64,000 bases of DNA from a virus (Duplodnaviria; Heunggongvirae; Uroviricota; Caudoviricetes). How positions within the stretch are numbered: position 1 is the stretch's first letter; each line of letters opens with the position of its first letter. The DNA lies in IMG/VR virus record IMGVR_UViG_3300025913_000020; one strand, given 5' to 3'. Positions 3,114 to 63,282 of this stretch are shown one piece after another. Under the pieces are notes generated by a model that saw only the letters and a program-made list of their open reading frames with translations, made no database searches and had not been told where the DNA came from. The translations under genes were made by a program, and so were the position numbers.

Positions 3114-3142
3114 AAAGTAAACAAATTCGCTTTAACCGTCAA
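3114..3142 (-). promoter_or_regulatory. sigma70-like promoter
   Basis: Minus strand GGGTA-TTGACG-N17-TACTTT with TTGTTTAC overlapping the -10. Confidence 0.65.
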
Positions 3143-3193
3143 TACCCAAGTTGCATATTCGTCTCAGAGTATTTTAGTTCTACAAACCAACGT

Positions 3194-3796
3194 ATGGCAT
3201 ATTCTCAAAACAACGAAGAAGAAGTAATCCTCCAGTTACTCACTGAATCCGGCGTTTCTATTGGTCGTTTTCTGGATATTGGGGCTTACGACGGCAAGGC
3301 TTTCTCCAACACAATGCGTCTCACCGAACTCGGATGGGGCGGCGTTTGCGTCGAACCTTCACCCAGTGTATTTCCGGCTTTGATGAAGCTTCACGGTCAG
3401 AATCCGAACATTGACTTGGTCCAGGCGGCCATCAGCCCTTCCTCAACTCTGGTGGAGTTTTACGACTCAGGCGGGGACGCGATCTCTACTACTTCGGCGA
3501 ACCACCGGGACAAGTGGCAGCGGGGCTGGAACGTGAATTACACGAAGTTTTTTGTCTTCACCCTTCCGTTGTCCGTGTTGTTTGCACGCTTTGGATTCAA
3601 CTTCCAGTTCATCAACATCGACGTTGAGTCAACCAACTGGAGTATTTTCGAAAATCTTCCTTTCGCGCTGCTCACGGCGACACGGGTCATCTGTGTGGAG
3701 CACGACAACCACATTGACCAGATGGCCAGCCTGGCCGCGCCTTACGGTTATCGGATCGCGCACACAAATGGCGAGAACCTTATCCTGGCGCGATGA
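3194..3796 (+). CDS. FkbM-family SAM-dependent methyltransferase
   Basis: YSQNNEE, FLDIGAYDG..FSNT, GVCVEPSP, FINIDVE, VICVEH. Confidence 0.85.
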   Translation: MAYSQNNEEEVILQLLTESGVSIGRFLDIGAYDGKAFSNTMRLTELGWGGVCVEPSPSVFPALMKLHGQNPNIDLVQAAISPSSTLVEFYDSGGDAISTTSANHRDKWQRGWNVNYTKFFVFTLPLSVLFARFGFNFQFINIDVESTNWSIFENLPFALLTATRVICVEHDNHIDQMASLAAPYGYRIAHTNGENLILAR

Positions 3797-4482
3797 AAGT
3801 CATCAGTTTTTCTGCCTGGGGCCGCGATCCTGCCTTTTATCAGGGCGCTTTGGCTAACGTTGAGCTGGCGAAGAAGATTTATCCCGATTGGACGTGTTGG
3901 TTTTTCGTGGATCACGACACGCCGTTGAGCATGGTTACGCCCCTCATCGACAACGGGGCCATGGTCTATTGGCGAAGCATTATGAGTGGACCATGGGAGG
4001 GGCTGTTTTGGAGGTTCGAGCCGATCTCTGATCCGTTCGTCACGCACACGATCGTACGGGACTGTGACAGCCGGGTGAATCCCAGAGAAGCTGCTGCCGT
4101 CGCTCAGTGGCTCGCGTCTGGCAAGATGTTTCACGTCATGCGTGATCATTACGAGCACAACGTTCCCATCATGGGCGGAATGTTCGGATCGCTGCACTGG
4201 CCTCTGATGGAGACCTTCATGAAGGAGTGGAAGGATTTCGGCAGCAAAGGCTGTGACCAGCGTTTTCTGGCTGAGCGCGTGTGGCCTACCGTTAAGCGTT
4301 CTACTATCGGGCACGACCGCTACGCTCAGGGGCTTTCCATGCCAAACCGCGACGGAGTTGGCACATACGAGTATAAGCCGCTGGAACAGTTGGGTGATCA
4401 CGACCTGCGGTTCTTTCCAGACCATGACATCTTTGATCCGGTTGTGTTTGGAGAACACGTCGGCGCACGCGTAGGAATCTGA
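3793..4482 (+). CDS. Glycosyltransferase-like protein
   Basis: KVISFSAWG...GALANVELAKKIYPDW, WRF, IVRDCDSR (DxD), HVMRDH, IMGGMFG, DQRFL; within the glycan cluster. Confidence 0.6.
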   Translation: MKVISFSAWGRDPAFYQGALANVELAKKIYPDWTCWFFVDHDTPLSMVTPLIDNGAMVYWRSIMSGPWEGLFWRFEPISDPFVTHTIVRDCDSRVNPREAAAVAQWLASGKMFHVMRDHYEHNVPIMGGMFGSLHWPLMETFMKEWKDFGSKGCDQRFLAERVWPTVKRSTIGHDRYAQGLSMPNRDGVGTYEYKPLEQLGDHDLRFFPDHDIFDPVVFGEHVGARVGI

Positions 4483-5081
4483 TGAATCACAGGTACAAAT
4501 TTCGTGTTGATGACATCAGCCTGAACACTGACGCTCTCAAACTGGCGGCGATGATCGCCTTCCTTCAGGATTACTTTGGTCCTGAGTGGGTTGAGGTTGA
4601 ACTGGCTGTTTCACCGGCAGTGTTCGACATGTCGAACTACGAGGGCCTGGAGAAGGAGCGCGCTTTCCCGGCCACTTTGAATCGTGAAGCGGACTTTCGG
4701 AAGTTTTACCGGGTGGAGAAAGTTGGCGTTCCTGAGTTTATCTGGGAGTACCGAAGCAAAGGGCCTTTTTTCACCATCTCAGCTCATGGCATGGTCCACG
4801 TCGATCATCGCCTGCTGTCAGGGAAGGCCCAAGAGCTGAGCATCGTGACTTCCTGTGCGCTGACGAAATCAGATTCGTTCGTTCCTCCGTTCCACAAGTG
4901 GAATGAGAAAACCGAAGCCGCGTGCCAAAGGAACCGAATCCATCTGGAGAAGCTGGAGTCCGTGAACACGAGCCACCTGCTGTACCACAAGTTTGATCCT
5001 AACACCTACCACTATTACTTCCACACCCATGACTTCACCTACGAACAATTCGTCCAGCGTTTTTCATCGCCTCCTCATTGA
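4482..5081 (+). CDS. Polysaccharide-deacetylase-like (NodB/DUF2334-type) protein
   Basis: FRVDD N-terminal motif, HGMVH, FVPPFHKWN, FHTHD. Confidence 0.5.
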   Translation: MNHRYKFRVDDISLNTDALKLAAMIAFLQDYFGPEWVEVELAVSPAVFDMSNYEGLEKERAFPATLNREADFRKFYRVEKVGVPEFIWEYRSKGPFFTISAHGMVHVDHRLLSGKAQELSIVTSCALTKSDSFVPPFHKWNEKTEAACQRNRIHLEKLESVNTSHLLYHKFDPNTYHYYFHTHDFTYEQFVQRFSSPPH

Positions 5082-8617: not shown

Positions 8618-9330
8618 ATAAAACCTGTGTTATCAATTTTGCAAAGGGCGCGTGGTATCCTCGTGGCCAGGCGCGCCTGGGCCAGTCTCTGAAGGATGTT
8701 GGCTACGACGGAGACTATTACCCCTGGAACGATGAGCGGACGCTTTTGGTGCCTCCGCATGAGATGCAGCCGTATGCCTTCAAGATCGGTGCTTTCCAGG
8801 AGGCCAAGCGCCTCGGTTATCGAAGGATTCTCTGGTGCGACGCCGCCGTCTTTGCCATCAAGTCCATTCAGCCGATCTTCGATCACATCGAGCGCGAGGG
8901 TCACCTTTTTTTCCAGAGCGGATTCAACTGCGCCCAGTGGACGAGCGACGTGTGCCTGAACACCATGGGCGTCAGCCGGGACGAGGCGGAGAAGATGACC
9001 ATGTACATGGCGTGCTGCATGGGTCTCAATCTCGATCATCCACGGTCAGTCGAGTTCCTGGATCGTCTGACGCATTACTCCATGACCGGCGTCTGCCTGC
9101 CGGGCGCTTGGCGCAACGAGAATCACGAAGTCTCGATGGACCCGCGCTGCCAGGGCCACCGTCATGACCAGAGCATCGGCAGCATTGTGGCCGCGCAGCT
9201 TGGCATGGAGGTCATTGTGGCGCATCACAGCTATTTCGCCTATTACACGAAAGGCGTTTATCAATACGGACAACCAAACGATATGACGGACATCAAAGAC
9301 AGTGTCGTCATGCTAACACAAGGAATGTAA
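8614..9330 (+). CDS. Glycosyltransferase-like (nucleotide-diphospho-sugar transferase fold) protein
   Basis: PYAFKIGAF, ILWCDAA, HRHDQS motif. Confidence 0.55.
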   Translation: MNKTCVINFAKGAWYPRGQARLGQSLKDVGYDGDYYPWNDERTLLVPPHEMQPYAFKIGAFQEAKRLGYRRILWCDAAVFAIKSIQPIFDHIEREGHLFFQSGFNCAQWTSDVCLNTMGVSRDEAEKMTMYMACCMGLNLDHPRSVEFLDRLTHYSMTGVCLPGAWRNENHEVSMDPRCQGHRHDQSIGSIVAAQLGMEVIVAHHSYFAYYTKGVYQYGQPNDMTDIKDSVVMLTQGM

Positions 9331-9336
9331 ACAATT

Positions 9337-9948
9337 ATGGGCGTCGTACCTCACAGTCTCAGAATGCTTCAGACCCACATCGGCAGTGTGGGCGGTTTTA
9401 ACGGATGCCGGATGCTCGAACTGGGTGATCAGCAGATGTACTGTCATCACAACATCCCGGAAGCCAGCGCCGCGAAGTCCTACTTCGAGCAGCTTGGAGT
9501 GAAGCACACGTCCGTTGACCTCAACGGGGAACTGGGCGCATTGCCGCTCAATCTTTCCACGCGGATCGACAACATTGACGGTGAAAACCTCTTTGATGTG
9601 GTCACTGATTTCGGCACTAGCGAGCACGTCGGGCCGGAAGTGAAGCACTTGCACGCCTGCCGCGAGAACGTTCACCGGTTCTGCCGACCGGGTGGCCTGA
9701 TGATTTTCATGAACCCGAAGATCGGCAACTGGCCGGGCCATGGGTATCACTATTTCACGCTCCAGCACTATGCCAGCCTGGCCGCCGCCATGGGTTACAC
9801 CATACTGGAGATTTCAGAACACCCGACTCTTGGAAACTCGGTCGATGGGTGGCAGATTCATGCTGCCCTGCTGAAGAACGGCGACGCGCCCTTCGTCAGC
9901 CTGGAACAGTTTGATCAGCTTTGTCAGGGGACGGTGTTTCGGAAATGA
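9337..9948 (+). CDS. SAM-dependent methyltransferase-like protein
   Basis: MLELGDQ, SVDLNG, FDVVTDFGTSEHV, CRPGGLMI. Confidence 0.7.
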   Translation: MGVVPHSLRMLQTHIGSVGGFNGCRMLELGDQQMYCHHNIPEASAAKSYFEQLGVKHTSVDLNGELGALPLNLSTRIDNIDGENLFDVVTDFGTSEHVGPEVKHLHACRENVHRFCRPGGLMIFMNPKIGNWPGHGYHYFTLQHYASLAAAMGYTILEISEHPTLGNSVDGWQIHAALLKNGDAPFVSLEQFDQLCQGTVFRK

Positions 9949-10487: not shown

Positions 10488-12830
10488 TTAGTCGATCTCG
10501 TTATTCAGGATCACGTCGCCAATACGAAGGAGTGTTGTCTCGATGGCGTTCACGACCGCAGACGTGTTGCCCGGAGTCTCCAAGGCAACACGATTGACAG
10601 CAGTCACACCGGAGATGGACTGGATCACGGCGGTAATGTTCGAGGCTGAGCCGATGATGCCGGGAATCTTGGTGCCGTAGATCGAGCTGCCCACGGCCAG
10701 GCCGTTCCCCCAGGCTTCGATGGCTGAGCGAATCTCCCTCCGCTTGGATTGGGATGTGTCGCCAGAATAGCCGACATAAATGTTTACGAAATTATCTGAA
10801 GCGTAGCCCACGATGGGGATGAGCTTCATGCTGAGATCGCCGGGCGCGCCGATGATGTAAAGGTTGATCTGGCCGGTCAGCAGGTTCACGGTGGATGGAT
10901 AGTTGTCCACGTCGGCACTGATGTTCGGACCGAGCACCTGCGCGGTGCCAGGCAGAATGCCGGGAACGACCGTGAGCTGGTTGATCCCGAGGAACAGGCT
11001 GAAGGACCACGCCTGGATCGGAAATACTGGCATCTGGGCCGTGTAAAGGCTCACGTTCGCGTTGTCCACGGAGCTGAATGCCGGGTTGCCTGCGCCATTT
11101 TTCGTCAGAGCATAGGAGAAGTTCGAGTCAGGCGGCGTGAACAGTTCCAGTGAATTGGCGGGGAATAAGTCGCCTGTCGGAGTCGCAAGTATAAGGTTAT
11201 CAACACCATTCACGGTGGTTAATGCACTGAATAACTTGGAATAAATCACGGCTTGGCCAGGCAGCAGGAGGTCCACGAAGCTGAGTAGCGCGCTCTGCAT
11301 CTGGATGGTGGTGTCAGCCACGTCGATATTATCGAGCACTTTGAAGCGAAGGCTGATGGGCAACGGGACTGCTGTGCCATCGCCGATCTCGACTTGGTCG
11401 GTGCCCACGGCCTTGGTCTGCATGAAGTCTTGCAGGGCCAGCTTTTGCAGCGGAGTGAGAGTGATGAGCGAGCCGTTGGGACCAGAGACCCACGGATAAA
11501 TGAACACGATGTTTCCTTCGAGGAAGGAGTTCTCGGTCCGCACCACGGCGCGGGCAAAGGCGATTCCAGGGAAGGACATCGCGATGGTCTGGTAGTCTTC
11601 CAGGGTCACGGCTCGGTCGTTGGCACGGCTGGCCGCAGGAATGTTGATGCGCGCCTGTTCCAGGGTTTCTGCATCCTGGCCGCCGCTGCCGACTCCGGTT
11701 TGGTTTGTGACCTGAATGGTGATCGGGCTGGTGGTGGAGGACAACAGCCCCGTGATCGAAGTGTTGATCGAGTTCAGGGAGATGTTGCCAGCGCTGCCGC
11801 CGCCTACTCGATAGGTCACAGTGATGACGGAATTCGTAGGCACTGCCGCGCCGAACGTGCCGTCACCAAAGACCACGAGGGGCTGACCTGACGGTGTCGT
11901 CTTAAAAATGAAGTCGTTCGCGTCGGCTGCCGATTTCGCGAAGCTGTTCACCTGGTTCCAGACATCACCGTTCACGGTGACTTGGACGGACCCTTCGATG
12001 ACCGGGGTTGTGCCAAGCATCACCACATACGACGGCGAGTTGTTCGCAGGCGAAGTGAAGTCATCCGTGACGGTTAATCCCTGCACGCACAGGATGCGCT
12101 GATCGTACACCTGGCCGGTGACAGTCGCGGTCGAAGCGCCAGCGTAAGCTGTCGCGAGCACGAGCCGGTTGTTGCTGACTGCGCCAGGAGATGCCTGAAT
12201 GTCCTGAATGATGTAGGTGGTAGTTTCGCCGGTGACCTGGAAAATTTGACCGGCCTGAACGTATTGTGTGAGGTCGATGGTGGTGTCCAACAGGTCGGCG
12301 TTCGAGGAACCGGGTGTCACCAGGATGAACGTGGACAGAACTTTAGGACCAGAAATCGTTGGCGAAATGGTGACGATCTGGGTGATGGGTGTTGTCTGTC
12401 CTGCCTGGATCACGTAGTCCTGGGCCACTTCGAAGGAGATGGAGGTCGTGTCGCCGGTACCGGTACTGCGGATCACGGTGCCTTTCGAGATGGTGACGGT
12501 CGCACTGGCTTGCGGTTGGCTGATGCTGGCTTCGCAAGAAACGGAGGCCGCCGTTGGGCCACGCAGTTGGTATCCGATCAGGCTGCCGAGGTTGACTGCC
12601 GATTCCCGTAACGTCATCGTGTTGATGAAGTTCTCGCCTGCCGCCCGGTTGACCAGAAAAGCGACCGTGGCAATCGACCAGGCCATGATGTCCACCAGGA
12701 CGATGCCGAAGGAATTATTGAGGAAGTCGTTCCAAACCCGTGGGTAACGCGCACGAATGCGCTGGAGCAGAGCGTCCTTCTGCGCCTGAAAATCAACCTG
12801 GATGTACCGTAACGTATTTGGCGTCGCCAT
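10488..12830 (-). CDS. Baseplate J-like / baseplate wedge protein
   Basis: N-terminal DFQAQKDAL...WNDF, VFGDGTFG, VTYRVGGGSAGN, GGQDAETLEQARINIP, RAVTLEDY. Confidence 0.85.
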   Translation of the reverse strand: MATPNTLRYIQVDFQAQKDALLQRIRARYPRVWNDFLNNSFGIVLVDIMAWSIATVAFLVNRAAGENFINTMTLRESAVNLGSLIGYQLRGPTAASVSCEASISQPQASATVTISKGTVIRSTGTGDTTSISFEVAQDYVIQAGQTTPITQIVTISPTISGPKVLSTFILVTPGSSNADLLDTTIDLTQYVQAGQIFQVTGETTTYIIQDIQASPGAVSNNRLVLATAYAGASTATVTGQVYDQRILCVQGLTVTDDFTSPANNSPSYVVMLGTTPVIEGSVQVTVNGDVWNQVNSFAKSAADANDFIFKTTPSGQPLVVFGDGTFGAAVPTNSVITVTYRVGGGSAGNISLNSINTSITGLLSSTTSPITIQVTNQTGVGSGGQDAETLEQARINIPAASRANDRAVTLEDYQTIAMSFPGIAFARAVVRTENSFLEGNIVFIYPWVSGPNGSLITLTPLQKLALQDFMQTKAVGTDQVEIGDGTAVPLPISLRFKVLDNIDVADTTIQMQSALLSFVDLLLPGQAVIYSKLFSALTTVNGVDNLILATPTGDLFPANSLELFTPPDSNFSYALTKNGAGNPAFSSVDNANVSLYTAQMPVFPIQAWSFSLFLGINQLTVVPGILPGTAQVLGPNISADVDNYPSTVNLLTGQINLYIIGAPGDLSMKLIPIVGYASDNFVNIYVGYSGDTSQSKRREIRSAIEAWGNGLAVGSSIYGTKIPGIIGSASNITAVIQSISGVTAVNRVALETPGNTSAVVNAIETTLLRIGDVILNNEID

Positions 12831-13051: not shown

Positions 13052-13459
13052 TCACAGTTTGAAAATCCCGTTCGGTCCGGTATCCCAGTGAATGACCACG
13101 TCTCCGCCTTGAGGGTTCCAGGGCAAACCGTTGCCGGTGTCGAGGTAGCAGACGAGGGTTGACGTGCTCTCGTTGCCCGTGTCTTTGAAAACGATGAAAG
13201 CGCCAATTAACGGGCCAGTGACTGCGTTGAGAGTGATGTTCGAGGCCAGGGCGACTCCGTTGTTGGCGGTTTTGCCGGTGAGAGCGCCGGAGATCGCGAT
13301 GCGGGCTGATAGCGGCACGTCCGAGAGCGAGTGATGGACATCTTTCAGAAAAGTGTAGTTGGCCGTGTTTACCAGCAAAACCTTAAAGGTGTTGTTGATC
13401 CAATCAATTTGTCCCGAGAGGAACTGCTGATTGGCGAATGTGTAGCGCTCGTTCGACAT
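13052..13459 (-). CDS. Virion structural (minor tail-type) protein
   Basis: QFLSGQIDW..NTFKVLLV, LTGKT..NGV, KDTG, GLPWNPQGGDVVIHWD.G..IFKL, a widespread phage structural family. Confidence 0.7.
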   Translation of the reverse strand: MSNERYTFANQQFLSGQIDWINNTFKVLLVNTANYTFLKDVHHSLSDVPLSARIAISGALTGKTANNGVALASNITLNAVTGPLIGAFIVFKDTGNESTSTLVCYLDTGNGLPWNPQGGDVVIHWDTGPNGIFKL

Positions 13460-13470: not shown

Positions 13471-13515
13471 CGAATTAAACTTGTTTACGAAATTTAGTTC
13501 TGTTGGAATCAAGAT

Positions 13516-15168: not shown

Positions 15169-15220
15169 TTGTTTACATTTTTGCTGATCACCATGCGACG
15201 TAGTTAGGGCAACCGACTTT

Positions 15221-23076: not shown

Positions 23077-23129
23077 ATCAACCGTAAATACGTTCTTCTG
23101 AGATATAGAATGCGAAAGAAAATGTAAAC

Positions 23130-23693
23130 ATGGGTCTTGATCCAGCAGACGTTCTAAAAATGCAGGAGCGCCTGGAGCGCAACCGCCGCCCGCGCCCTAT
23201 GGTGACGGCTCCGGCTCCGGCCAGGACGCCTCCGCCGCCCGCGCCGCCACAGGTGGAATCGTCGTCTGCGCGGTCCATCGTTTTTGCCAATCTTGACGAG
23301 TTCGACATGCGCCAGTTCACGTACCGGGGTGCGCCAATGGGCAAGCCGCGCATGACACAGCGGGATAAGTTTGTCAAAAGGCCGAAGGTGCAGCGCTATT
23401 GGGCATTCAAGGATGCCATCCGACTGGCGGCTGGCACGCTTCCGCCATTGCCCGAGCTGGTGCTGGTCTTTGCCCACGTGGCCATGCCGAAGTCTTGGAA
23501 GAAAGCCAAGATGGCTGAGTTGGCAGGCAAGCCCTGCCGTGGACGGCCTGATTGGGACAACATCGGTAAGGCCGTATGCGATTCTCTGTTCGATGAAGAC
23601 TGCTGCATCTGGCTCGGAATGACAATGAAGCACTGGTGCTACGCAGGCGAAGAACGTGTCGATGTGAAAGTTTTTTATGCTAAATCCAAATGA
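23130..23693 (+). CDS. rusA: RusA-family Holliday junction resolvase
   Basis: GAPMGKPRMTQRDK...RP.VQRYWAFKD, RPDWDNIGKAVCDSL..ED..IW. Confidence 0.85.
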   Translation: MGLDPADVLKMQERLERNRRPRPMVTAPAPARTPPPPAPPQVESSSARSIVFANLDEFDMRQFTYRGAPMGKPRMTQRDKFVKRPKVQRYWAFKDAIRLAAGTLPPLPELVLVFAHVAMPKSWKKAKMAELAGKPCRGRPDWDNIGKAVCDSLFDEDCCIWLGMTMKHWCYAGEERVDVKVFYAKSK

Positions 23694-24046: not shown

Positions 24047-24074
24047 TTGACTGGAATACAAAATTGTTTACATT
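24047..24074 (+). promoter_or_regulatory. sigma70-like promoter with overlapping TTGTTTACA motif
   Basis: TTGACT-N16-TACATT. Confidence 0.7.
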
Positions 24075-24085: not shown

Positions 24086-24388
24086 ATGAATACCCGACCG
24101 AGAAAAAAGCTCCAACTGAAACCTCGAAAGATCAGAGAACCCCGCACAGTGGTTGTCGCTTTTCGGTTGCGCAGGACGGAAGCCAAGGCGTTGAGCGCTG
24201 ATCTGAAGCAAACTCCGGCTGCCGGAGTCAAGTCCCTGAAGCAGTTTGCGCGTAAGATCGTCATCGACTTCTCCAAGAGCCGTCTCCGCTATGTGAATCC
24301 AGCGGATCGCACGATTGACTGCGACGCGGGAGAACGCCTGGTGGAGATGCGCGCCAAGATGCGCGAAACGTCCACTGCCATTTCATGA
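24086..24388 (+). CDS. Putative ribbon-helix-helix DNA-binding protein
   Basis: Basic N-terminus, then RTVVVAFRL (beta strand) R.TEAKAL...G.KSLKQFARK (two helices). Confidence 0.5.
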   Translation: MNTRPRKKLQLKPRKIREPRTVVVAFRLRRTEAKALSADLKQTPAAGVKSLKQFARKIVIDFSKSRLRYVNPADRTIDCDAGERLVEMRAKMRETSTAIS

Positions 24389-26323: not shown

Positions 26324-27067
26324 GTGAGTGAACTTGTAAGCGATATTGTTGCGATTGTGACTGAAAGCGATGTCCGAACGCGGAGAGAAAGGGCTGCTTT
26401 TGTTGCCAAGCTCCGTGATGAAATGGGGCTGACCTGGGGTCAAATTGGCAGCCAGCTCAACGTGTCGCTTCAGCGCGCCCAACAGCTCTACACGTTGAAC
26501 AAGTTCTTTCAGCGCAGTGCTCGAAGCCCGTTCCGCGATCTCACTACCCGCGCTCGTAATCTTCTCAATAGCATTGCTTCCAGCCAGCGCTGGCCGAGGG
26601 ACTGGGAGGACAAGCCGGAACTGGTAACGCAGATGCTCGCACTGCTGAAGGCCATGCCGGAGCGGGAGCTGAAGAAGTTTCGTCAGGCCGGGAAGCGCAC
26701 GACCGGTGAGGTAAACGATTTCCTGACCCGGCAGGTGTCGGAAGCATTCGGTGGCGAAGTCGATCCAAAGGACTTTACCACGGCGGAAGACCCGCAGGCA
26801 GTGGTGCAGCTTGTGACCAAGTTTCTCAATGAAAATGGCTTCATGGGCGAGTTTACTGCATGGCCGCCCGAGACGGTCAAAGACCTCAATCCCGAATATG
26901 ATTTCATGGTGGTCATGACTCCTTTCATGGCCGACGCCCTGGAGGAGCGCTGGTCTGCATTCACCGAGCTGGACTCGGTGCTGCGTTCCATGGGTTACGA
27001 ATACGACGTGGCCGGAGAGCCGGGCGATCCGCAGCGCTCACTCAACTTCTTCAAAATAAAAGCCTGA
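26324..27067 (+). CDS. sigma70 region-4-like HTH fused to an RNA polymerase alpha-CTD-like domain
   Basis: LRDEMGLTWGQIGSQLNVSLQRAQQL (HTH); DLTTRARNLL...ELKKFRQAGKRTTGEVNDFL (alpha-CTD-like). Confidence 0.65.
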   Translation: MSELVSDIVAIVTESDVRTRRERAAFVAKLRDEMGLTWGQIGSQLNVSLQRAQQLYTLNKFFQRSARSPFRDLTTRARNLLNSIASSQRWPRDWEDKPELVTQMLALLKAMPERELKKFRQAGKRTTGEVNDFLTRQVSEAFGGEVDPKDFTTAEDPQAVVQLVTKFLNENGFMGEFTAWPPETVKDLNPEYDFMVVMTPFMADALEERWSAFTELDSVLRSMGYEYDVAGEPGDPQRSLNFFKIKA

Positions 27068-28306: not shown

Positions 28307-28752
28307 GGTAGTAACTGGAACCGCCGTGTGATGGTTTGTATTTCGTGCTTCTTCGCTGGACCTATACCCAGGGCGGTAATGATGGGCTGGCCACCGAAGA
28401 AATTTTCACAGCCGGAATCCACGACCAGGAAGTGCGGGATGCCGAGGCGTTTGGCTTCGTCCACGGCCTGCATGATCCGATTGAGGTTGCCCTCAAGACA
28501 GACTTTGGTGCCGGGAGAATTGGGGTGCTCGACGGAATAGGCCGCAGCGAGCGAGGGATTTTGTTGAAGCGCCTGGATGTAAGCTCCCAGGTAAGCGTGA
28601 CCCGCTTGAGAAGCGGATTTGCCTGGAGTCATGCCCAGGTCTTTGCGAACGATAGCGTAGAGACGGAGAGTTTCGTCCTACGTGAATGGAGAGGCACATG
28701 GGGCACTTTCCCCAGTTGCCTTCGAAGTTTCTAAAACCTACAGTTCTGTCAT
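28303..28752 (-). CDS. pth2: Peptidyl-tRNA hydrolase 2 (Pth2)-family protein with two in-frame TAG codons in its N-terminus
   Basis: Frame from ATG 28752: MTEL*VLETSKATGESAPCASPFT*DETLRLYAIVRKDLGMTPGKSASQAGHA...KVCL...V.D.G...T.LGIGP...I..IT.RFQLL. TAGs at 28738-40 and 28678-80. The conserved first strand (YAIVRKDL) lies upstream of the track start 28632. Confidence 0.8.
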
Positions 28753-28761: not shown

Positions 28762-28790
28762 AATGTAAACGCTTCCTTTTTCGCTGTCAA
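28762..28790 (-). promoter_or_regulatory. sigma70-like promoter of the Pth2-like gene
   Basis: TTGACA-N17-TACATT, 9 nt before ATG 28752 (near-leaderless). Confidence 0.7.
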
Positions 28791-28929: not shown

Positions 28930-28958
28930 AAACTAAAATGTTTACATTTATGAGTCAA
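28930..28958 (-). promoter_or_regulatory. sigma70-like promoter of the tRNA, with palindrome in the spacer
   Basis: TTGACT-N17-TAGTTT; AAATGTTTACATTT at 28936-28949. Confidence 0.65.
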
Positions 28959-29653: not shown

Positions 29654-29682
29654 TTGACATCCAAATCGTAAATGTTTACAAG
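29654..29682 (+). promoter_or_regulatory. sigma70-like promoter with TGTTTACA
   Basis: TTGACA-N17-TACAAG, 6 nt before ATG 29689. Confidence 0.65.
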
Positions 29683-30312: not shown

Positions 30313-30329
30313 TATTTGCACTTTGGCTA

Positions 30330-30358
30330 TTGACAGGCGTTAGGTCTTCGTTTACATT
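30330..30358 (+). promoter_or_regulatory. sigma70-like promoter
   Basis: CACTTTGGCTA-TTGACA-N17-TACATT. Confidence 0.7.
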
Positions 30359-32925: not shown

Positions 32926-32983
32926 GGATTTGTTCAAACATTGACTTGACGAAGCAAAAATTGTTTACGATTATTCACACGTT

Positions 32984-38408: not shown

Positions 38409-39311
38409 TTACTTTCCCTGTTTCCACATCTCGAAGGATTTTTCCAGCCACGCCACTGCTTTGTTTCGCGCCGTGTGTGAGGTTGGTCCCTGTTTGATTT
38501 TCGGTATCTCCGTCCTGAGTAGCCGGGCGTGAATCTCGCGCTTGTCTTCCAAAAATTTCTTCAGCTCCAATGCCGGACGGCGGCAGCCTTGTTCGAGGAG
38601 GTAGGCGCAGAATGCCGAAGAAGGTAGAGAAAAACCATCATTTTCGGCTTCGTTCTCGGTCTGCTCAAGTTTTTCTTCGCCGGTTTTCTTTTTCATCAGC
38701 GCCGAAAAACGCCGCTGTAGCTCGCTGGATTCGGTGACACCTTGGATGGCGAGGATGCGTTTCTGCTGCTCCTTCTCATCGCGGTCCATGTCAAGGATCA
38801 AGCGCTGGATGAGCGTACATTCAGTGATCCCGGTTGTGATCGCCGTATTTGCACGTTCGCGAAATTCGTCGATGTTTTCGTTCAGCACGCGCTTTTGAAA
38901 ATCAGCAAACGACCGCTTTCTTTTTGAGCCAGAGCCTTTTTCCAGATAGCCTTCCTCTTTGTCAAGGATGTAACGGAGCGCGCCGATGATGGAAAAGGAG
39001 TTGATAAACCCTCGGGCTTGGAACCAAGCATAGGCTTCTTTTCCTGTTTTGGCCCACTTTTCTTCGGGTTGAGGTCTGCGCCGTGCCAGGAATGAGGTCG
39101 TCGCGAGAGTTTTAGTTGGTTCGGCTTCCATGGTATCCACCAGCGTAGCTGTGGATTTGTTTGATGTTGTCGGTGGAGTGCCGACTTCCATTGTGTGCAG
39201 GCGTCGCTCGTGACTTTCCTGCTTGGCTTTCATGTTCTTGACCGTCTGTTCGAGTTTTGAGACGGTCAGCGTGAGTTCTTCCAGTGATATTTTAGTAGGT
39301 TGAGCTGACAT
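38409..39311 (-). CDS. Hypothetical protein with coiled coils
   Basis: 301-codon ORF from MSAQPTK. Confidence 0.65.
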   Translation of the reverse strand: MSAQPTKISLEELTLTVSKLEQTVKNMKAKQESHERRLHTMEVGTPPTTSNKSTATLVDTMEAEPTKTLATTSFLARRRPQPEEKWAKTGKEAYAWFQARGFINSFSIIGALRYILDKEEGYLEKGSGSKRKRSFADFQKRVLNENIDEFRERANTAITTGITECTLIQRLILDMDRDEKEQQKRILAIQGVTESSELQRRFSALMKKKTGEEKLEQTENEAENDGFSLPSSAFCAYLLEQGCRRPALELKKFLEDKREIHARLLRTEIPKIKQGPTSHTARNKAVAWLEKSFEMWKQGK

Positions 39312-40957: not shown

Positions 40958-40985
40958 TTGACTTTATTACTTCCAAATGTAAACA
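40958..40985 (+). promoter_or_regulatory. sigma70-like promoter with TGTAAACA
   Basis: TTGACT-N16-TAAACA. Confidence 0.6.
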
Positions 40986-41334: not shown

Positions 41335-41386
41335 CGATTGTTTGCAAGTGGTTGAAGGGCAGTAGATAGAATATACACTCTGACTA

Positions 41387-41414
41387 TTGACAAATGGTCA
41401 AATAATTGTAAACT
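41387..41414 (+). promoter_or_regulatory. sigma70-like promoter
   Basis: TTGACA-N16-TAAACT, 9 nt before ATG 41424. Confidence 0.7.
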
Positions 41415-46385: not shown

Positions 46386-46397
46386 GTTCTCTCAGTG

Positions 46398-46730
46398 GTG
46401 AGTGAACCCGCACCCAAGCGCAAATGGTACGATCGTGACCCGGCAGAGCTGAAAGCCCTCCAGGGAGATTCCGCCTACGAGACACCCGCCCAGAAGATCA
46501 TCCGTCAGGAGGCCCGCATCAAAGAGCTGGAAGCCCTGGTGCTCGCCATGCAGGAGGACGCCGAGGATTACATCCAGCAGATAAAGACCCTCAAGGAGAA
46601 TCACCGCAGCTACCTGTCACAGAAGCAAATTGCGGACGACCTGAAGGACGAGCTGTTCGAAGTAAAGCTTAAGCTGAAGCGCTTGGAGTGGGCGGAGACA
46701 CTGAGGAACAAGCAGAGCCATCAGGAGTGA
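46398..46730 (+). CDS. Coiled-coil hypothetical protein
   Basis: GTTCT 7 nt before GTG 46398; heptad-rich. Confidence 0.6.
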   Translation: MSEPAPKRKWYDRDPAELKALQGDSAYETPAQKIIRQEARIKELEALVLAMQEDAEDYIQQIKTLKENHRSYLSQKQIADDLKDELFEVKLKLKRLEWAETLRNKQSHQE

Positions 46731-47174: not shown

Positions 47175-47202
47175 TTGACAAACGAACGGAAAATTGTAAA
47201 CA
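47175..47202 (+). promoter_or_regulatory. sigma70-like promoter with TGTAAACA
   Basis: TTGACA-N16-TAAACA. Confidence 0.65.
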
Positions 47203-47315
47203 TTCTGATGTGCGAGAAAATGATACTGTCGTAAACATTATGTGCGAGAGGATGGTGGCGTCCAAATAACCTTCTTGGTGATCTGCGTCCCCGACCTCGC
47301 ACGCGTAAACAATCT

Positions 47316-50109: not shown

Positions 50110-50137
50110 TTGCACGGAACTAAAAATTGTTTACAAA
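50110..50137 (+). promoter_or_regulatory. sigma70-like promoter with TTGTTTACAA
   Basis: TTGCAC-N16-TACAAA, 7 nt before ATG 50145. Confidence 0.55.
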
Positions 50138-55430: not shown

Positions 55431-55467
55431 CTTATATTCATGGTGTAAAGAAAATACACTTTGGGTA

Positions 55468-55495
55468 TTGACAAAGGCACAGATTTGTTTACATT
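55468..55495 (+). promoter_or_regulatory. sigma70-like promoter with TTGTTTACA
   Basis: CACTTTGGGTA-TTGACA-N16-TACATT, 7 nt before ATG 55503. Confidence 0.75.
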
Positions 55496-57336: not shown

Positions 57337-57354
57337 CAAACTGCACTTTGGGTA

Positions 57355-57382
57355 TTGACACCAAACCATAATTGTTTACATT
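57355..57382 (+). promoter_or_regulatory. sigma70-like promoter with TTGTTTACA
   Basis: CACTTTGGGTA-TTGACA-N16-TACATT. Confidence 0.75.
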
Positions 57383-57390: not shown

Positions 57391-57645
57391 ATGAATGACG
57401 AGTTCCCCAAGATGTCTGAGTTCGAGACCAAGGTTTTCACCCGTTTCGCTCGCGCCCACAAGCCTGGCTACGGCGATCACAGCATCCAGCTCGAAGGCGA
57501 TGGCCGCATCGCGATCTGTGCTGCCGCGCACCGGCTGATGAAGAAGGGTGTCCTCATCAAGCACAGTGCGTGCAACTGGTATTTGACCGAGCTTGGCCGG
57601 AAGATGGCCGTCGAGTGGCAGAAGCTTAACCCCAAGAAGGCATGA
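57391..57645 (+). CDS. Putative winged-helix protein
   Basis: AAHRLMKKGVL...WYLTELGR. Confidence 0.55.
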   Translation: MNDEFPKMSEFETKVFTRFARAHKPGYGDHSIQLEGDGRIAICAAAHRLMKKGVLIKHSACNWYLTELGRKMAVEWQKLNPKKA

Positions 57646-59232: not shown

Positions 59233-59619
59233 ATGCCACCCGAACCTAAAAAGACGTTGCCGCCTCTGCCGCCGAAAGAACCCGATGCCCGGCCTTGGCG
59301 CTGGCTCCACGATAAACCCGAGGGCATGTGGTATCTCGTAAACGGGCCAGAGGGCAAGGAAAACTCAGTGATCCCGGCGCTGCACGCTTTCGAGGATTTT
59401 GGCGAAAGCGTCAATGCTCAGCTCATCCTGCGCGCCGTAAACCAGTATGACATTGTGCGTGAGCTGATCGTCGCGGTGACTCGCTATACACGGGTAGTCG
59501 AAGACCATTATCACACTCTGACTGATGGTCAGTTTGGCCGGTTTAGCGATAATCCAGCCGGTAAAGAGCTGGCGGCTGTCATCGTGAAGCTGTTAGAAAT
59601 TCACGAAAGTAAGGGTTGA
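59233..59619 (+). CDS. Hypothetical protein
   Basis: Array member. Confidence 0.6.
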   Translation: MPPEPKKTLPPLPPKEPDARPWRWLHDKPEGMWYLVNGPEGKENSVIPALHAFEDFGESVNAQLILRAVNQYDIVRELIVAVTRYTRVVEDHYHTLTDGQFGRFSDNPAGKELAAVIVKLLEIHESKG

Positions 59620-59643
59620 CTCTTGACCACAAAATTGTAAACA
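59616..59643 (+). promoter_or_regulatory. sigma70-like promoter with AAATTGTAAACAATTT palindrome
   Basis: TTGACT-N16-TAAACA. Confidence 0.65.
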
Positions 59644-60060: not shown

Positions 60061-60072
60061 TTCTCTCGGGAT

Positions 60073-61312: not shown

Positions 61313-61692
61313 GAGCCTATTACGCAGCCAACGTGAAAGAGCGGATGGACAAGCTAACCACCGCTCAGCGCCGGACCGTTATCCGCTACGCCAAGACCGA
61401 GGCCGAGCGCCTGGCCAGCTCGGGTGACATCCAGGCAGAGCTGTTCGCTGTTCTTCCACGCCACCTGGATGTGTGCGGATTCACCACGAAGCAGCGCAAG
61501 CAGTCACCGCGCAAGCAGATGGAGGAAGCGTTCTTCAGCTTTTACCGGGATGGTATCACTGGCGACGCAGGCAAATATCTGTCGAACAAAGTGATTCGCA
61601 AGCTGATGAAGATTCCCGGCAACGACTTTCATTTCGCTTACCGAACATTCGCGGCGGGCTGGTCATTGGGCAGGACGTTTGGGCTGCGCTGA
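61309..61692 (+). CDS. Hypothetical protein
   Basis: ATGA overlap. Confidence 0.6.
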   Translation: MRAYYAANVKERMDKLTTAQRRTVIRYAKTEAERLASSGDIQAELFAVLPRHLDVCGFTTKQRKQSPRKQMEEAFFSFYRDGITGDAGKYLSNKVIRKLMKIPGNDFHFAYRTFAAGWSLGRTFGLR

Positions 61693-62528
61693 TCTGTCAT
61701 TCTCCATTTCAGCAGGTCGATCAGTGACTGACGCACAACGGGTCGGAGCGCTTTCATCTTCTTGCGCCATTTGCGCTTCCACGGGGCTTTCTTTTTGTTC
61801 AGCTCGTCCCGGTGTTCCTCTCGGTATTTTTTAGCGGCAGTCTTGGCTTTGGTTAAGTTGCGCTCGCGCCAGCTCTTGTTCCTGGCGTTGGTGATCTCGG
61901 GGTGCTCGTCCCTGAATTTGTAAACGTGGAAGTATTGAGAGCACTTCGGGCTGCAAAACTTGCGCTTCTTCAGGTCGGCAAACCTCCAGAACAGCCTGCC
62001 ACACCTGGAAAACTGGCACTTCACCAGAATTTTCCGGCGTGCTCGTTTCTTTTCTTTATAGCGCCTGGCGTTCAGCGTCGAGTACATGTGAGCTTCGCAG
62101 CAGAAGTTCACTTTGTTCGACTTGGCAAAGAATGGCTGTCGGCAGTGATCGGCCAGACAGGTGCGCAGGAAATATCCTTTCGGCGGCTTCAGGCGTTTTC
62201 TGGCTTCTCGCACGGTGTGCAGATGAAGCGACGGTTGCAGGTGCTCGCGTATTCGCTGCTTGATCACCAGCCACAGGGCATTGAGTTCTTTGGCCTCCTC
62301 CTGGTCATCGGTCTGCTTCCGTGGATGAACTCGGATCGCGTGGCGTTTGTAAACTTTCTCAGCGTCGTAGAGGACGTATTCGAGCTGACCCTGCCAGTGT
62401 TCCCAGAAGTTTCGTACGCACCAGATGTGCCGGGGCAGACCGAGCTGCTTCAGCAGAATCTTAATCGAAAGACTGCGCAGACCGTAATAGCGTCCACGGT
62501 ATTTTACGAGTGCCCTGTTTCTCCTCAT
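61638..62528 (-). CDS. Very basic protein with two treble-clef-type Zn fingers
   Basis: ATGA-coupled start MRRNRAL; C....C..PF......FCC..H and C....C...F......FCS.KC; Lys/Arg-rich tail. Confidence 0.6.
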   Translation of the reverse strand: MRRNRALVKYRGRYYGLRSLSIKILLKQLGLPRHIWCVRNFWEHWQGQLEYVLYDAEKVYKRHAIRVHPRKQTDDQEEAKELNALWLVIKQRIREHLQPSLHLHTVREARKRLKPPKGYFLRTCLADHCRQPFFAKSNKVNFCCEAHMYSTLNARRYKEKKRARRKILVKCQFSRCGRLFWRFADLKKRKFCSPKCSQYFHVYKFRDEHPEITNARNKSWRERNLTKAKTAAKKYREEHRDELNKKKAPWKRKWRKKMKALRPVVRQSLIDLLKWRMTDQRSPNVLPNDQPAANVR

Positions 62529-62860
62529 CGCATCGAGTAAGAACGGGAGGCGACCGGCAGGTGCAGGACGTTTTTCTTCGGCTCGTTGAGATTCTTCACC
62601 ACGTTGTGATGCAGGGCGTAGTGGATCAGTTCCGGCAGGGTGGTGAGATTCAGCTTCTCGAAGATGCGTTCGCGATACGTGGCAATGGTCTTGACCGACA
62701 GGAACAGCTTCTTCCCGATCTCGGTGGACGGCACGCCCAGGGCCAGGAGTTTCATCACTTCCAATTCCCGCTTTGAAAGGCTGGCGACACCTTCTTTGAC
62801 CGGCACCCATCCCCGGCCATGAGTATAACGACAAAGCCTGACCTCACGCGTCGATTTCAT
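62525..62860 (-). CDS. Stand-alone LuxR-type HTH protein
   Basis: LSKRELEVMKLLALG....EIGKKLFLSVKTI.TYR..IFEKL.L....ELIHYA. Confidence 0.85.
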   Translation of the reverse strand: MKSTREVRLCRYTHGRGWVPVKEGVASLSKRELEVMKLLALGVPSTEIGKKLFLSVKTIATYRERIFEKLNLTTLPELIHYALHHNVVKNLNEPKKNVLHLPVASRSYSMR

Positions 62861-63231
62861 TTGGTTAGGTCGAAGAAGTTGGTGGCGTAGCGCATCTTCC
62901 CTTTGTCGTAGTAGGTCAGAATCTGTTGCTCCATGATCCGGCCCTTTGCGTCTATCGGGTTGATCATGGTTGTAACTTTTGCGGTTACATTGGGAGAAGC
63001 CGCGAACACCTGGGCCTCCCAGGCTTGCTGTTGGAGAGCATTGTTTGTCTGGACGGCGACCTGCTGGAGCCGGAGCGAAGCGTTGAGCTTTTCGCGAAGC
63101 GGTCGGGCTTGGTCTCGGGAAAGAGTCTGCCGCTGAATCAGCTCAGCATTGACGGCTGGCGGTGCGGTCGGGGTCTGCGCGCAACCAGTAATTAAAAGCA
63201 ATAGGCATAGTAATCGGGTTGTCATATCCAT
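62857..63231 (-). CDS. Putative lipoprotein
   Basis: LLCLLLLITGC lipobox. Confidence 0.65.
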   Translation of the reverse strand: MDMTTRLLCLLLLITGCAQTPTAPPAVNAELIQRQTLSRDQARPLREKLNASLRLQQVAVQTNNALQQQAWEAQVFAASPNVTAKVTTMINPIDAKGRIMEQQILTYYDKGKMRYATNFFDLTK

Positions 63232-63253
63232 AAAAGAACGGATGCAGTGTCAC

Positions 63254-63282
63254 TTGCATTTTAAGTCAAATAAGTGTAAACA
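63254..63282 (+). promoter_or_regulatory. sigma70-like promoter with TGTAAACA
   Basis: TTGCAT-N17-TAAACA, 9 nt before ATG 63292. Confidence 0.5.

What the first reader, a model, noticed from the sequence alone, without database searches (positions are those of the whole stretch)
3114..63282. A regulon of at least 13 sigma70-like promoters with a palindromic TGT-WW-ACA operator over the -10 box
Seen: TTGAC(A/T/G) or TTGCA-N16/17-TA.... at 3114-42(-), 24047, 28762-90(-), 28930-58(-), 29654, 30330, 40958, 41387, 47175, 50110, 55468, 57355, 59616 and 63254. The -10 region reads TGTTTACA in some and its reverse complement TGTAAACA in others, yet keeps TA at -12/-11. In the tRNA promoter the palindrome (AAATGTTTACATTT) sits in the spacer. 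Several share CACTTTGGGTA upstream of the -35, and many lie 6-9 nt before an ATG (leaderless). Inference: orientation-independent symmetry points to a dimeric repressor that shuts off early promoters together, including the tRNA and pth2 promoters.
Basis: partly seen in the sequence, partly recalled or inferred. Interest (0 to 1): 0.7.

Follow-up and report, generated by a model that had tools for sequence, protein, structure and literature searches.

The report
Operator-like box inside jumbo-phage promoters
An uncultured giant phage carries the same near-palindromic 8-base box (TGTTTACA or TGTAAACA) in all of its bacterial-type promoters, and comparison with related phages shows the box is a separate, movable and flippable element, most likely the landing site of one regulatory protein that controls these promoters together.

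Summary
All 14 listed sites exist, and I found a 15th promoter at 32946. TGTWWACA occurs 18 times against 1.3 expected, always as TGTTTACA or TGTAAACA.

The box sits 12-13 nt after the -35 in the TT form and 14-15 nt in the AA form, so TA stays 16-17 nt from the -35. Most promoters lie 8-11 nt before an ATG. The window shows no Shine-Dalgarno signal.

Syntenic loci from eight related jumbo-phage lineages show the box is not simply the -10.
- In the tRNA promoter (three genomes) and one other promoter, it sits unchanged in the spacer while the real -10 hexamer varies.
- In the 32946 promoter (five genomes) it flips from TT to AA without moving.
- Conserved copies also occur without any -35.

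This favours a symmetric DNA-binding protein, most likely a repressor, but no binding or transcription start was measured. The best candidate is a highly conserved 111-aa LuxR/GerE-type protein (62525-62860, minus strand) that is modelled as a homodimer.

This is a new member of a known kind: a phage operator regulon. The scan had noted the same box in the adjacent window of this genome and called it an ordinary promoter core.

The parts
3116..3142 (-). Promoter: -35 TTGACG (3142-3137), 13 nt, box TGTTTACT (3123-3116). Upstream element CAACTTGGGTA at 3153-3143. ATG at 3082 after a 33-nt leader that holds TAGTTTA.
24047..24072 (+). Promoter: TTGACT, 12 nt, TGTTTACA (24065-24072), ATG at 24086. 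Conserved in L010, L011, L012/13 and L028.
28764..28790 (-). pth2 promoter: TTGACA, 13 nt, CGTTTACA (28771-28764), ATG at 28752 followed by TAG at codon 5. Conserved in L013 and L014.
28930..28958 (-). tRNA(CUA) promoter: TTGACT (28958-28953), 6 nt, box TGTAAACA (28946-28939) in the spacer, 3 nt, -10 TAGTTT (28935-28930). The tRNA is at 28920-28846.
29654..29680 (+). Promoter: TTGACA, 13 nt, TGTTTACA, with the ATG (29689) 8 nt after the box.
30330..30356 (+). Promoter: CACTTTGGCTA + TTGACA, 13 nt, CGTTTACA, ATG at 30387 (30-nt leader). Box position 1 is C or A in all five genomes.
32946..32974 (+). Orthologues carry TGTAAACG at the same position.
40958..40985 (+). Promoter: TTGACT, 14 nt, TGTAAACA, with a long leader to gene 41038.
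41387..41414 (+). Promoter: CACTCTGACTA + TTGACA, 14 nt, TGTAAACT, with the ATG (41424) 9 nt after the box. L013 has CGTAAACT.
47175..47237 (+). Promoter: TTGACA, 14 nt, TGTAAACA (47195-47202), plus a second copy CGTAAACA (47230-47237) 35 bp downstream. Each copy is followed by a mini-ORF.
50110..50135 (+). Promoter: TTGCAC, 12 nt, TGTTTACA, with the ATG (50145) 9 nt after the box.
55457..55493 (+). Promoter: CACTTTGGGTA + TTGACA (55468), 12 nt, TGTTTACA, with the ATG (55503) 9 nt after the box. Conserved in L018 and L020.
57344..57380 (+). Promoter: CACTTTGGGTA + TTGACA (57355), 12 nt, TGTTTACA, ATG at 57391. Conserved in L018.
59616..59643 (+). Promoter: TTGACT, 14 nt, AATTGTAAACAATT (a 14-bp near-perfect dyad), with the ATG (59653) 9 nt after the box.
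63254..63282 (+). Promoter: TTGCAT, 15 nt, TGTAAACA, with the ATG (63292) 9 nt after the box. It faces away from the operon that holds the LuxR/GerE-type gene.
15170..15177 (.). Box TGTTTACA without any -35, directly after the helicase stop codon and upstream of a TAGTTA-type start. Conserved in L010, L011, L012 and L028; absent in L029.
13482..13489 (.). Box TGTTTACG between two diverging TAGTT-type starts. Conserved in L010, L011, L012 and L028; absent in L029.
23123..23130 (.). Box TGTAAACA whose last base is the A of the RusA start codon. Conserved in L010, L012 and L028; missing, together with about 24 nt, in L011.
9326..9333 (.). Box TGTAAACA 3 nt before the ATG at 9337. The same arrangement is in L012 and L029.
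62525..62860 (-). Candidate regulator: a stand-alone LuxR/GerE-type HTH protein of 111 aa, second gene of the minus-strand operon 63231-61638. The ATG of that operon is preceded by a GTTCT-type motif.
26324..27067 (+). Weaker second candidate: a 247-aa protein with a sub-threshold N-terminal HTH (Sigma70_r4 E 0.0076, HTH_23 E 0.013).

Best explanation
The window belongs to an uncultured jumbo phage of about 245 kb. Its host-type promoters have three modules:
- an optional upstream element (A/G)CACTTTGGGTA;
- a canonical -35 TTGACA;
- the box (T)GT(TT/AA)AC(A) with A/T-rich flanks, consensus AAATTGT-WW-ACAATTT, lying somewhere between the -35 and +1.

Host sigma70/sigmaA-type RNA polymerase reads the -35 and a TAnnnT-like hexamer 16-17 nt downstream. 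Transcription probably starts at or within about 2 nt of the ATG, giving leaderless messages in a host that does not use Shine-Dalgarno sites.

The box itself is the binding site of a sequence-specific, twofold-symmetric DNA-binding protein. Wherever it sits (over the -10, or in the spacer), a bound protein lies inside the polymerase footprint, so the most likely effect is coordinated repression of this whole promoter class.

The best candidate in the window is the 111-aa LuxR/GerE (NarL output-domain-like) protein at 62525-62860 (minus strand).

Shown: the modules, their spacing rules, the separability and orientation independence of the box, and its conservation.

Inferred: protein binding, repression, timing, the identity of the protein, and the start sites.
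For: 1. The box is far from chance and always has a TT or AA centre.

2. All 8 strict sigma70-like matches in the window contain it, and core-less matches are depleted: 0 against about 5.9 expected.

3. The box moves. It covers -16..-9 (TT form), -14..-7 (AA form), -19..-12 (promoter 32946) and -23..-16 (tRNA promoter, and L020 at 5770) relative to the TA of the -10 hexamer. A fixed polymerase contact cannot slide over 9 bp.

4. In the tRNA promoter of three genomes, TTGACT and AAATGTAAACA are invariant while the -10 hexamer differs: TAGTTT, TACTAT, TATAGT.

5. In the 32946 promoter of five genomes the box keeps its 10-nt distance, but its centre is TT in two genomes and AA in three. That is what a symmetric reader tolerates. 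Where the box overlaps the -10, orientation is locked to spacing (at least 10 TT groups at 12-13 nt, 5 AA groups at 14-15 nt, no exception).

6. Conserved copies occur without a -35 near other start types. Second copies lie 35-37 bp from the first in four places.

7. The candidate protein.
- Pfam GerE, E 1.4e-17. It is the only clear DNA-binding domain among 67 window proteins scanned.
- It is 88-90% identical to orthologues in phages whose other shared proteins are 43-73% identical.
- Its nearest solved relatives are NarL/FixJ-type output domains such as EvgA, VraR and FixJ.
- Homodimer model: score 0.51 against a best of 3 controls of 0.03. That mark was reached by 20 of 30 proteins solved as pairs of one chain and by 1 of 23 solved as single chains. 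The runs agree in at least 96% of contacts, and the partner's pLDDT is at least 78. The interface lies in residues 74-93, the last helix. Like complexes are solved, so the pass may be from memory.

8. Precedent: the isolated NarL output domain binds inverted heptamers 2 bp apart (7-2-7) as a dimer and represses frdA from a site at -4/+6 (PMC4549865). The box with its flanks has the same 7-2-7 layout.
Against: - No binding, footprint or expression data exist.
- The centre is never TA or AT in this phage or its closer relatives, so the site is not a true palindrome. A monomer reading GTTTAC in either orientation is not excluded.
- Position 1 of the box is C or A at two promoters and is kept so in up to five genomes.
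- The link between the GerE-type protein and the box rests on being the only HTH found, its high conservation, its neighbourhood and a family precedent. Half of the window's proteins and about 180 kb of the genome were not examined.
- The box is conserved across phages down to 39% marker identity. That would also fit a host-encoded reader.
- Some boxes lie 0-3 nt before start codons or inside genes, where simple promoter occlusion does not explain them.
Confidence: 0.55

Rival explanations
1. There is no separate factor. The box is just the phage's preferred -10 / extended -10 sequence for the host's housekeeping RNA polymerase, and its near-symmetry is incidental. This is the reading an earlier follow-up gave for the adjacent window.
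For: - TA is kept 16-17 nt from the -35 in both forms.
- Every sigma70-like promoter has the core.
- The TT form gives TACATTTT, a good TAnnnT hexamer.
- The box is conserved across distant relatives, as expected if the host enzyme dictates it.
- No binding protein has been shown.
Against: - In three independent promoter families the box lies 3-9 bp upstream of a separate, correctly spaced -10 hexamer.
- In the tRNA promoter the real -10 varies while the box is invariant.
- TT flips to AA at a fixed position between orthologues.
- The conserved G and T of the box fall at -15/-14 in one form and at -13/-12 in the other, so they fit no single polymerase contact.
- Conserved boxes exist without a -35.
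- The AA form (TAAACA) lacks the T at -7.
Confidence: 0.2
2. The box is a protein-binding site, but the protein is not a simple shut-off repressor. Three variants: an activator or dual switch (repressing where the box is inside a sigma70-type promoter, activating where it lies upstream of TAGTTA/GTTCTA-type starts), a host global regulator that the phage exploits, or a monomeric reader of GTTTAC.
For: - Conserved boxes lie 3-35 nt upstream of TAGTT/GTTCT-type starts (13482, 15170, 38038, 63275 on the minus strand).
- GerE of B. subtilis both represses and activates within a temporal cascade (PMC517825).
- The centre is always asymmetric.
- Deep conservation of the box fits a host factor.
Against: - The distance from the box to TAGTT/GTTCT motifs is variable (3, 5, 11-12, 20-23, 35 nt), unlike typical activator sites.
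- The orthologous sites in the distant relative L029 keep the TAGTT/GTTCT motifs without the box, so those starts do not need it.
- Over a -10 that must melt, a duplex-binding activator is unlikely.
Confidence: 0.17
3. The box serves something other than control of host-polymerase promoters. Examples: the promoter of a phage-encoded RNA polymerase embedded in early promoters, a replication or packaging iteron, or a target of DNA modification.
For: - Jumbo phages often encode their own polymerases (general knowledge; PMC7598289 appeared in the listing but was not read).
- A few boxes lie inside genes (1283, 6927, 51608), and many do so in L029.
Against: - A near-symmetric 8-mer gives no direction to a polymerase.
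- The boxes are tied to -35 hexamers and start codons, not clustered as an origin would be.
- Box-to-ATG distances range from 0 to over 30 nt across all contexts.
- The three intragenic copies in the window are close to the chance expectation of 1.3.
Confidence: 0.05

Closest known systems
Dispersed operator regulons of large temperate phages: P1 C1 repressor operators (from memory) and Cluster A mycobacteriophage repressor/stoperator sites (PMC9283540, PMC6550527)
   Same: One short specific site is repeated at many places across a large phage genome. It overlaps or adjoins promoters of many separate transcription units, so one protein can control them together. The site is strongly conserved among related phages.
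   Different: - Stoperators and P1 operators are asymmetric 13-17-bp sites, and the stoperator repressor binds as a monomer. Here the site has TGT/ACA arms and is used in both orientations.
- No integrase or immunity module was seen in this window, so the lifestyle is unknown.
- Binding has not been shown here.
NarL/FixJ (LuxR/GerE) output domains binding 7-2-7 inverted heptamers, e.g. NarL at frdA (PMC4549865)
   Same: - The candidate protein matches Pfam GerE and solved NarL/FixJ-type output domains.
- It is modelled as a dimer through its last helix, as NarL dimerises along helix alpha10 (PMC4549865).
- AAATTGT-WW-ACAATTT has the 7-2-7 layout.
- The isolated NarL output domain alone represses from a site at the start point.
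   Different: - The heptamer sequence differs (NarL: TACCCCT).
- The candidate has no receiver domain. It has a conserved 20-residue N-terminal extension (VRLCRYTHGRGW) of unknown role.
- The link between this protein and the box is inferred only.
B. subtilis GerE, a stand-alone LuxR-type protein that ends a temporal cascade (PMC517825)
   Same: It is a small stand-alone HTH of the same Pfam family. It represses the preceding gene class and activates the next. That matches the layout seen here, with boxes inside one promoter class and upstream of another.
   Different: GerE works with sigmaK promoters in a bacterium, and its recognition sequence is unrelated. The dual role here is speculation.
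Housekeeping sigma70/sigmaA bipartite promoters set against start codons (leaderless mRNAs), e.g. the -10 region adjacent to ORFs in Deinococcus-Thermus (PMC12340547)
   Same: TTGACA, a 16-17 nt spacer and a TA-initiated hexamer ending 6-9 nt before the ATG. There is no Shine-Dalgarno signal upstream of genes.
   Different: Ordinary promoters have no invariant near-symmetric 8-mer that can leave the -10 position, flip orientation, or occur alone. Start sites are not mapped here.

Membership tests
sigma70/sigmaA-type bipartite promoter | -35 hexamer close to TTGACA | tested here: met
   13 of 15 promoters have TTGAC(A/T/G) and two have TTGCA(C/T). The same holds in relatives.
sigma70/sigmaA-type bipartite promoter | -10 hexamer TAnnnT placed 16-18 nt after the -35 | tested here: inconclusive
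   TA lies at 16-17 nt in 14 promoters. The 15th (32946) has GATTAT at 17 nt. T at the sixth position is present in 7 of the 8 TT-form hexamers (TACATT, TACTTT) and in the spacer-type hexamers (TAGTTT, GATTAT). It is absent from 4 of the 5 AA-form hexamers (TAAACA) and from TACAAG and TACAAA.
sigma70/sigmaA-type bipartite promoter | Transcription starts 6-8 nt after the -10 | not testable with these tools
   No RNA data were available.
Leaderless-mRNA promoters (-10 adjacent to the ORF) | -10 hexamer ends about 6-9 nt before the start codon, with no Shine-Dalgarno sequence | tested here: met
   The box ends 8-11 nt before the ATG in 8 of 15 window promoters and in most orthologues. GGAG occurs upstream of only 10 of 118 predicted starts.
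Phage repressor-operator regulon | The same specific site recurs inside the core region of many promoters | tested here: met
   15 promoters in the window plus orthologues in 8 related lineages. The box always lies between the -35 and +1.
Phage repressor-operator regulon | The site is separable from the polymerase recognition elements | tested here: met
   The box lies in the spacer with an independent -10 hexamer in the tRNA promoter (three genomes), in L020 at 5770 and in the 32946 group (five genomes). There is a TT/AA flip at a fixed position.
Phage repressor-operator regulon | Dyad symmetry matching a dimeric binder | tested here: inconclusive
   The TGT/ACA arms and the AAAT/ATTT flanks are symmetric. 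The centre is always TT or AA, never TA or AT, and position 1 is C or A at two promoters.
Phage repressor-operator regulon | A cognate DNA-binding protein binds the site and lowers transcription | not testable with these tools
   There is only a candidate, the GerE-type protein at 62525-62860.
LuxR/GerE (NarL/FixJ-type) HTH family, for the candidate protein | Four-helix GerE-type HTH domain | tested here: met
   Pfam PF00196 at E 1.4e-17, above its cut-off. PDB sequence matches to EvgA, VraR, FixJ, RcsB and SsrB output domains.
LuxR/GerE (NarL/FixJ-type) HTH family, for the candidate protein | Dimerisation through the C-terminal helix | tested here: met
   Homodimer model: score 0.51 against a best of 3 controls of 0.03. 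The mark was reached by 20 of 30 proteins solved as pairs of one chain and 1 of 23 solved as single chains. Contacts agree in at least 96% and pLDDT is at least 78. The interface is residues 74-93. The pass may be from memory of solved family dimers.
MerR-type spacer operators | Dyad in an over-long 19-20 bp spacer between the -35 and -10 | tested here: not met
   Spacers are 16-17 bp, including in the promoters where the box lies in the spacer.
Bacteroidota-type promoters (-33 TTTG / -7 TAnnTTTG; consensus from memory) | -33 TTTG rather than TTGACA, and -7 TAnnTTTG | tested here: not met
   TT-form promoters read TACATTT(T/G), which resembles the -7 motif. The upstream hexamer, however, is a full TTGACA, mostly preceded by A, C or G rather than T, and AA-form promoters do not fit TAnnTTTG.

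The most novel reading that the evidence does not exclude
One small GerE-type dimer acts as the temporal switch of a whole family of uncultured jumbo phages. Made from a GTTCT/TAGTTA-type (middle) promoter, it binds AAATTGT-WW-ACAATTT boxes. This shuts off all host-polymerase, leaderless early promoters, including those of the suppressor tRNA and pth2. It also assists the TAGTTA/GTTCTA-type starts that have a box a short way upstream. Paired boxes 35-37 bp apart would give cooperative binding.
Probability: 0.15. Interest if true: 0.65.

Novelty: new member of a known kind. Interest (0 to 1): 0.45.

Why it matters
The result gives a concrete, testable regulatory map for a family of uncultured phages of about 200-250 kb in which almost every gene is unannotated. 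It defines which genes form the host-polymerase (probably early) class, and it shows that they share one control element. It also names a 111-aa protein and a 16-bp DNA to test together.

The spacing rule has wider use. The same box is kept over the -10 in either orientation by sliding 2 bp, and it is free to flip when it sits in the spacer. This is a clean natural example of how an operator and a promoter share bases, and it is a practical criterion for telling operators from promoter cores in metagenomic phage genomes.

The parts may also serve as compact repressible promoters for hosts that translate leaderless messages.

Tried and rejected
- No close DNA relative exists among 50,697 phage records. 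The tblastn search found only domain-level hits to the polyvalent protein.
- No whole genome is held for this window, and the records behind the loci could not be searched.
- A scan of viral contigs for CACTTTGGGTATTGACA gave 9 hits, about the number expected by chance. None has the box downstream, so the scan is uninformative.
- Protein-based scans of viral contigs found no relatives of the 577-aa protein or of the GerE-type protein. The metagenome scan found only generic LuxR-family genes at 42-59% identity, on contigs without boxes. A co-variation test between the protein and the box was therefore impossible.
- A literature search for the 8-mer returned only eukaryotic forkhead sites and unrelated uses. 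A search for the EvgA site gave nothing usable.
- PHROGs gave no useful annotation: nine large proteins had no match and one had a weak match to a family of unknown function.
- Pfam on 67 window proteins found one clear HTH and two weak ones: 26324-27067, and 46395-46730 at E 0.009.
- The generic promoter scanner finds about as many sites as in shuffles (14 against 9.9, and 13 against 8.0). Terminator-like hairpins are not enriched.
- A MerR-type mechanism was rejected because the spacers are too short. A Bacteroidota-type promoter was rejected because the -35 is TTGACA.
- Resemblances to the TyrR box (TGTAAA-N6-TTTACA), to LacI/GalR half-sites (TGTAAACG) and to the EvgA box come from memory only and were not tested.
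- An alternative register (TGn plus WWACAT as an extended -10) was rejected. It would give 15-16 nt spacers in one form and 17-18 nt in the other, and no A at -11 in the TT form.

Full report
**What the window is.** The 64-kb window (53-58% G+C) holds about 118 densely packed genes, mostly ORFans. Recognisable ones include a DnaB-like helicase, a DEAD/ResIII helicase, a Baseplate_J protein, RusA, a polyvalent InPase/ART/C39 protein, Pth2 and one tRNA with a CUA anticodon. It has no DNA relative among 50,697 phage records. One of its proteins is recorded on a contig of 245,196 bp, so this is an uncultured jumbo phage. Upstream of the predicted starts there is no Shine-Dalgarno signal: GGAG occurs before only 10 of 118.

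**Checking the observation.** All 14 listed sites are real.
- TGTWWACA occurs 18 times against 1.26 expected (largest shuffle 3). All copies are TGTTTACA or TGTAAACA, never TGTATACA or TGTTAACA.
- The -35 is TTGAC(A/T/G) in 13 promoters and TTGCA(C/T) in two.
- The box starts 12-13 nt after the -35 when its centre is TT (eight promoters) and 14-15 nt when it is AA (five promoters).
- Counting orthologous groups once across all genomes examined, at least ten TT groups and five AA groups follow this rule without exception.
- The box ends 8-11 nt before the ATG in eight promoters. This fits starts at or next to the ATG.
- I add a 15th promoter at 32946.
- CACTTTGGGTA is exact at two promoters and has 1-3 mismatches at three more.
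- In a strict scan (TTG plus at most one mismatch to ACA, 16-18 nt, TAnnnT), all eight matches in the window contain the GT(TT/AA)AC core. Shuffles give 5.9 matches, almost none with the core, and none of 100 shuffles had zero core-less matches. The phage thus avoids stray sigma70-like sequences, and every real promoter carries the box.

**Relatives.** Homologues of two window proteins led to syntenic loci from large contigs: L010, L011/L014, L012/L013, L016, L017 and L028, with marker-protein identity of 47-80%, and a distant one, L029, at 39%. Homologues of a third protein gave three short contigs, L018-L020. The promoter architecture is conserved in all of them.

**Is the box just the -10?** Four results say no.
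1. *tRNA promoter.* In three genomes TTGACT and AAATGTAAACA are invariant and the box lies 6 nt after the -35. The hexamer at the proper 17-nt distance is different in each genome: TAGTTT, TACTAT, TATAGT. L020 has an unrelated promoter of the same build: TTGACT-6-TGTAAACA-tt-TAATAG-7-ATG.
2. *Promoter 32946.* It reads TTGACG-10-TGTTTACG with GATTAT as the -10 at 17 nt. Its orthologues in five genomes keep CTTGAC, AA.TTGT..ACGA.TATT.ACA and the ATG. The centre of the box is TT in two genomes and AA in three, at the same position. Where the box does not supply the TA, it is free to flip. Where it does, orientation and spacing are coupled. That is the behaviour expected of a site read symmetrically by something other than sigma.
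3. *The box slides.* Relative to the TA of the -10 hexamer it covers -16..-9, -14..-7, -19..-12 or -23..-16. No single polymerase contact can slide over 9 bp. The conserved G and T of the box fall at different positions in the two -10-overlapping forms.
4. *Copies without a -35.* Conserved copies occur after the helicase stop codon (15170), between two diverging starts (13482), abutting the RusA start codon (23123) and 3 nt before the ATG at 9337. Each is kept in two to four of the relatives. Second copies lie 35-37 bp from the first at window 47195/47230, in L011, in L012 and in L017.

**What it most likely does.** A duplex-binding protein anywhere between the -35 and +1 lies inside the polymerase footprint, and over the -10 it would block melting. 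Coordinated repression is therefore the most economical reading.

The genes served are small ORFans, the suppressor tRNA, pth2 and the like. Structural and cargo genes (baseplate J, the polyvalent protein) are instead preceded by a second motif class: TAGTTA 4 nt before the start, or (A)GTTCTA 6-7 nt before it. These 5-mers are 8-11 times enriched upstream of starts. 'Early' is thus a reasonable but untested label for the box-bearing promoters.

**Candidate protein.** Pfam scans of 67 window proteins found one clear DNA-binding domain. It is a stand-alone LuxR/GerE-type HTH (E 1.4e-17), whose gene is 62525-62860 on the minus strand and encodes 111 aa.
- It sits in an operon that faces away from promoter 63254, and the ATG of that operon is preceded by a GTTCT-type motif.
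- It is 88-90% identical to orthologues in phages whose other shared proteins are 43-73% identical.
- It resembles NarL/FixJ-type output domains such as EvgA, VraR and FixJ.
- A homodimer model scored 0.51 against a best of 3 controls of 0.03. That mark was reached by 20 of 30 proteins solved as pairs of one chain and by 1 of 23 solved as single chains. Contacts agree in at least 96% and pLDDT is at least 78. The interface is in the last helix (residues 74-93). Family dimers are solved, so this may be recall.
- NarL output domains bind inverted heptamers 2 bp apart as dimers, and the isolated domain represses frdA from a site at -4/+6 (PMC4549865). With its flanks, the box reads AAATTGT-WW-ACAATTT, the same 7-2-7 layout.
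- GerE itself represses one gene class and activates the next (PMC517825).
- A second, weak candidate is the 247-aa protein at 26324-27067, which has a sub-threshold HTH.

None of this shows that the protein binds the box.

**Rivals.**
- *Polymerase-only.* This was the verdict of an earlier follow-up on the adjacent window (e1-1879209). It explains the TA register and the deep conservation. It does not explain the spacer-located boxes, the flip, or the copies without a -35. I give it 0.2.
- *A non-repressor or host-encoded binder, or a monomer reading GTTTAC.* This remains possible (0.17). The centre is always asymmetric, position 1 is C or A at two conserved promoters, and boxes also lie upstream of TAGTT/GTTCT starts.
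- *Against an essential activator role.* The distant relative L029 keeps those starts without the box.
- *Other roles* (0.05) fit poorly.

**Comparison with known systems.** The promoters meet the sequence criteria of sigma70-type promoters set against ORFs for leaderless expression (PMC12340547). The box adds the logic of dispersed phage operator regulons: P1 C1 (from memory) and the Cluster A mycobacteriophage repressor with its stoperators (PMC9283540, PMC6550527). It differs from those in being near-symmetric and used in both orientations. MerR-type and Bacteroidota-type readings fail defining features.

I class this as a new member of a known kind. Its interest is moderate, raised by the clean natural evidence on how operator and promoter bases are shared and by a directly testable protein-DNA pair.

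Noticed in passing
window 10488-12830(-), 13052-13459(-), 33891, 45872 (TAGTTA); 24616, 27084, 38078, 39346, 38409-39311(-), 46395, 63231(-) (GTTCTA/GTTCTT): A second motif class lies next to start codons. TAGTTA sits 4 nt before ATG/GTG, and (A)GTTCT(A/T) sits about 6-9 nt before ATG. The 5-mers AGTTA, TAGTT and TTCTA are 8-11 times enriched in the 30 nt upstream of starts. The class is conserved in relatives, including the distant L029. It is probably the middle/late promoter class, again giving near-leaderless messages.
   Followed up: partly
window 47195-47290: There is a tandem duplication of the box plus about 20 nt (GTAAACATT..ATGTGCGAGA). It yields two similar mini-ORFs (MCEKMILS*, MCERMVASK*) directly after promoter 47175, and a third GTAAACA lies 4 nt before the ATG of gene 47316.
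   Followed up: no
window 47195/47230; L012 18518/18553; L011 19206/19241; L017 about 12162/12199: Paired boxes in the same orientation lie 35-37 bp apart. In L011 and L012 the extra copy lies 7-8 nt upstream of the -35, and in L017 13 nt upstream. This could reflect cooperative binding.
   Followed up: partly
window 28752-28738(-); L013 about 8361; L014 about 5727: The ATG of the pth2 promoter is followed by an in-frame TAG at codon 5 in all three genomes. It lies next to the conserved tRNA(CUA) gene, which has its own box-bearing promoter.
   Followed up: partly
window 55457-55467, 57344-57354, 30319-30329, 3153-3143(-), 41376-41386: An upstream element (A/G)CACTTTGGGTA abuts the -35 in about a third of the promoters, and also in L013, L014, L016, L018 and L020. 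It is not A/T-rich like a classical UP element and contains a weak dyad, TACAC-N3-GGGTA. It could be a second protein site.
   Followed up: partly
L029 19714-19854 and orthologous intergenic regions: The most distant relative uses TGTATACA (an AT centre) in its tRNA promoter. It lacks the box at the helicase-stop, divergent and RusA sites, yet it has 10 exact TT/AA boxes in 20.8 kb, several of them inside genes.
   Followed up: no
window 62525-62860(-): The GerE-type protein has an invariant 20-residue N-terminal extension (VRLCRYTHGRGW.PVKEG) not covered by the HTH domain. Its role is unknown.
   Followed up: no
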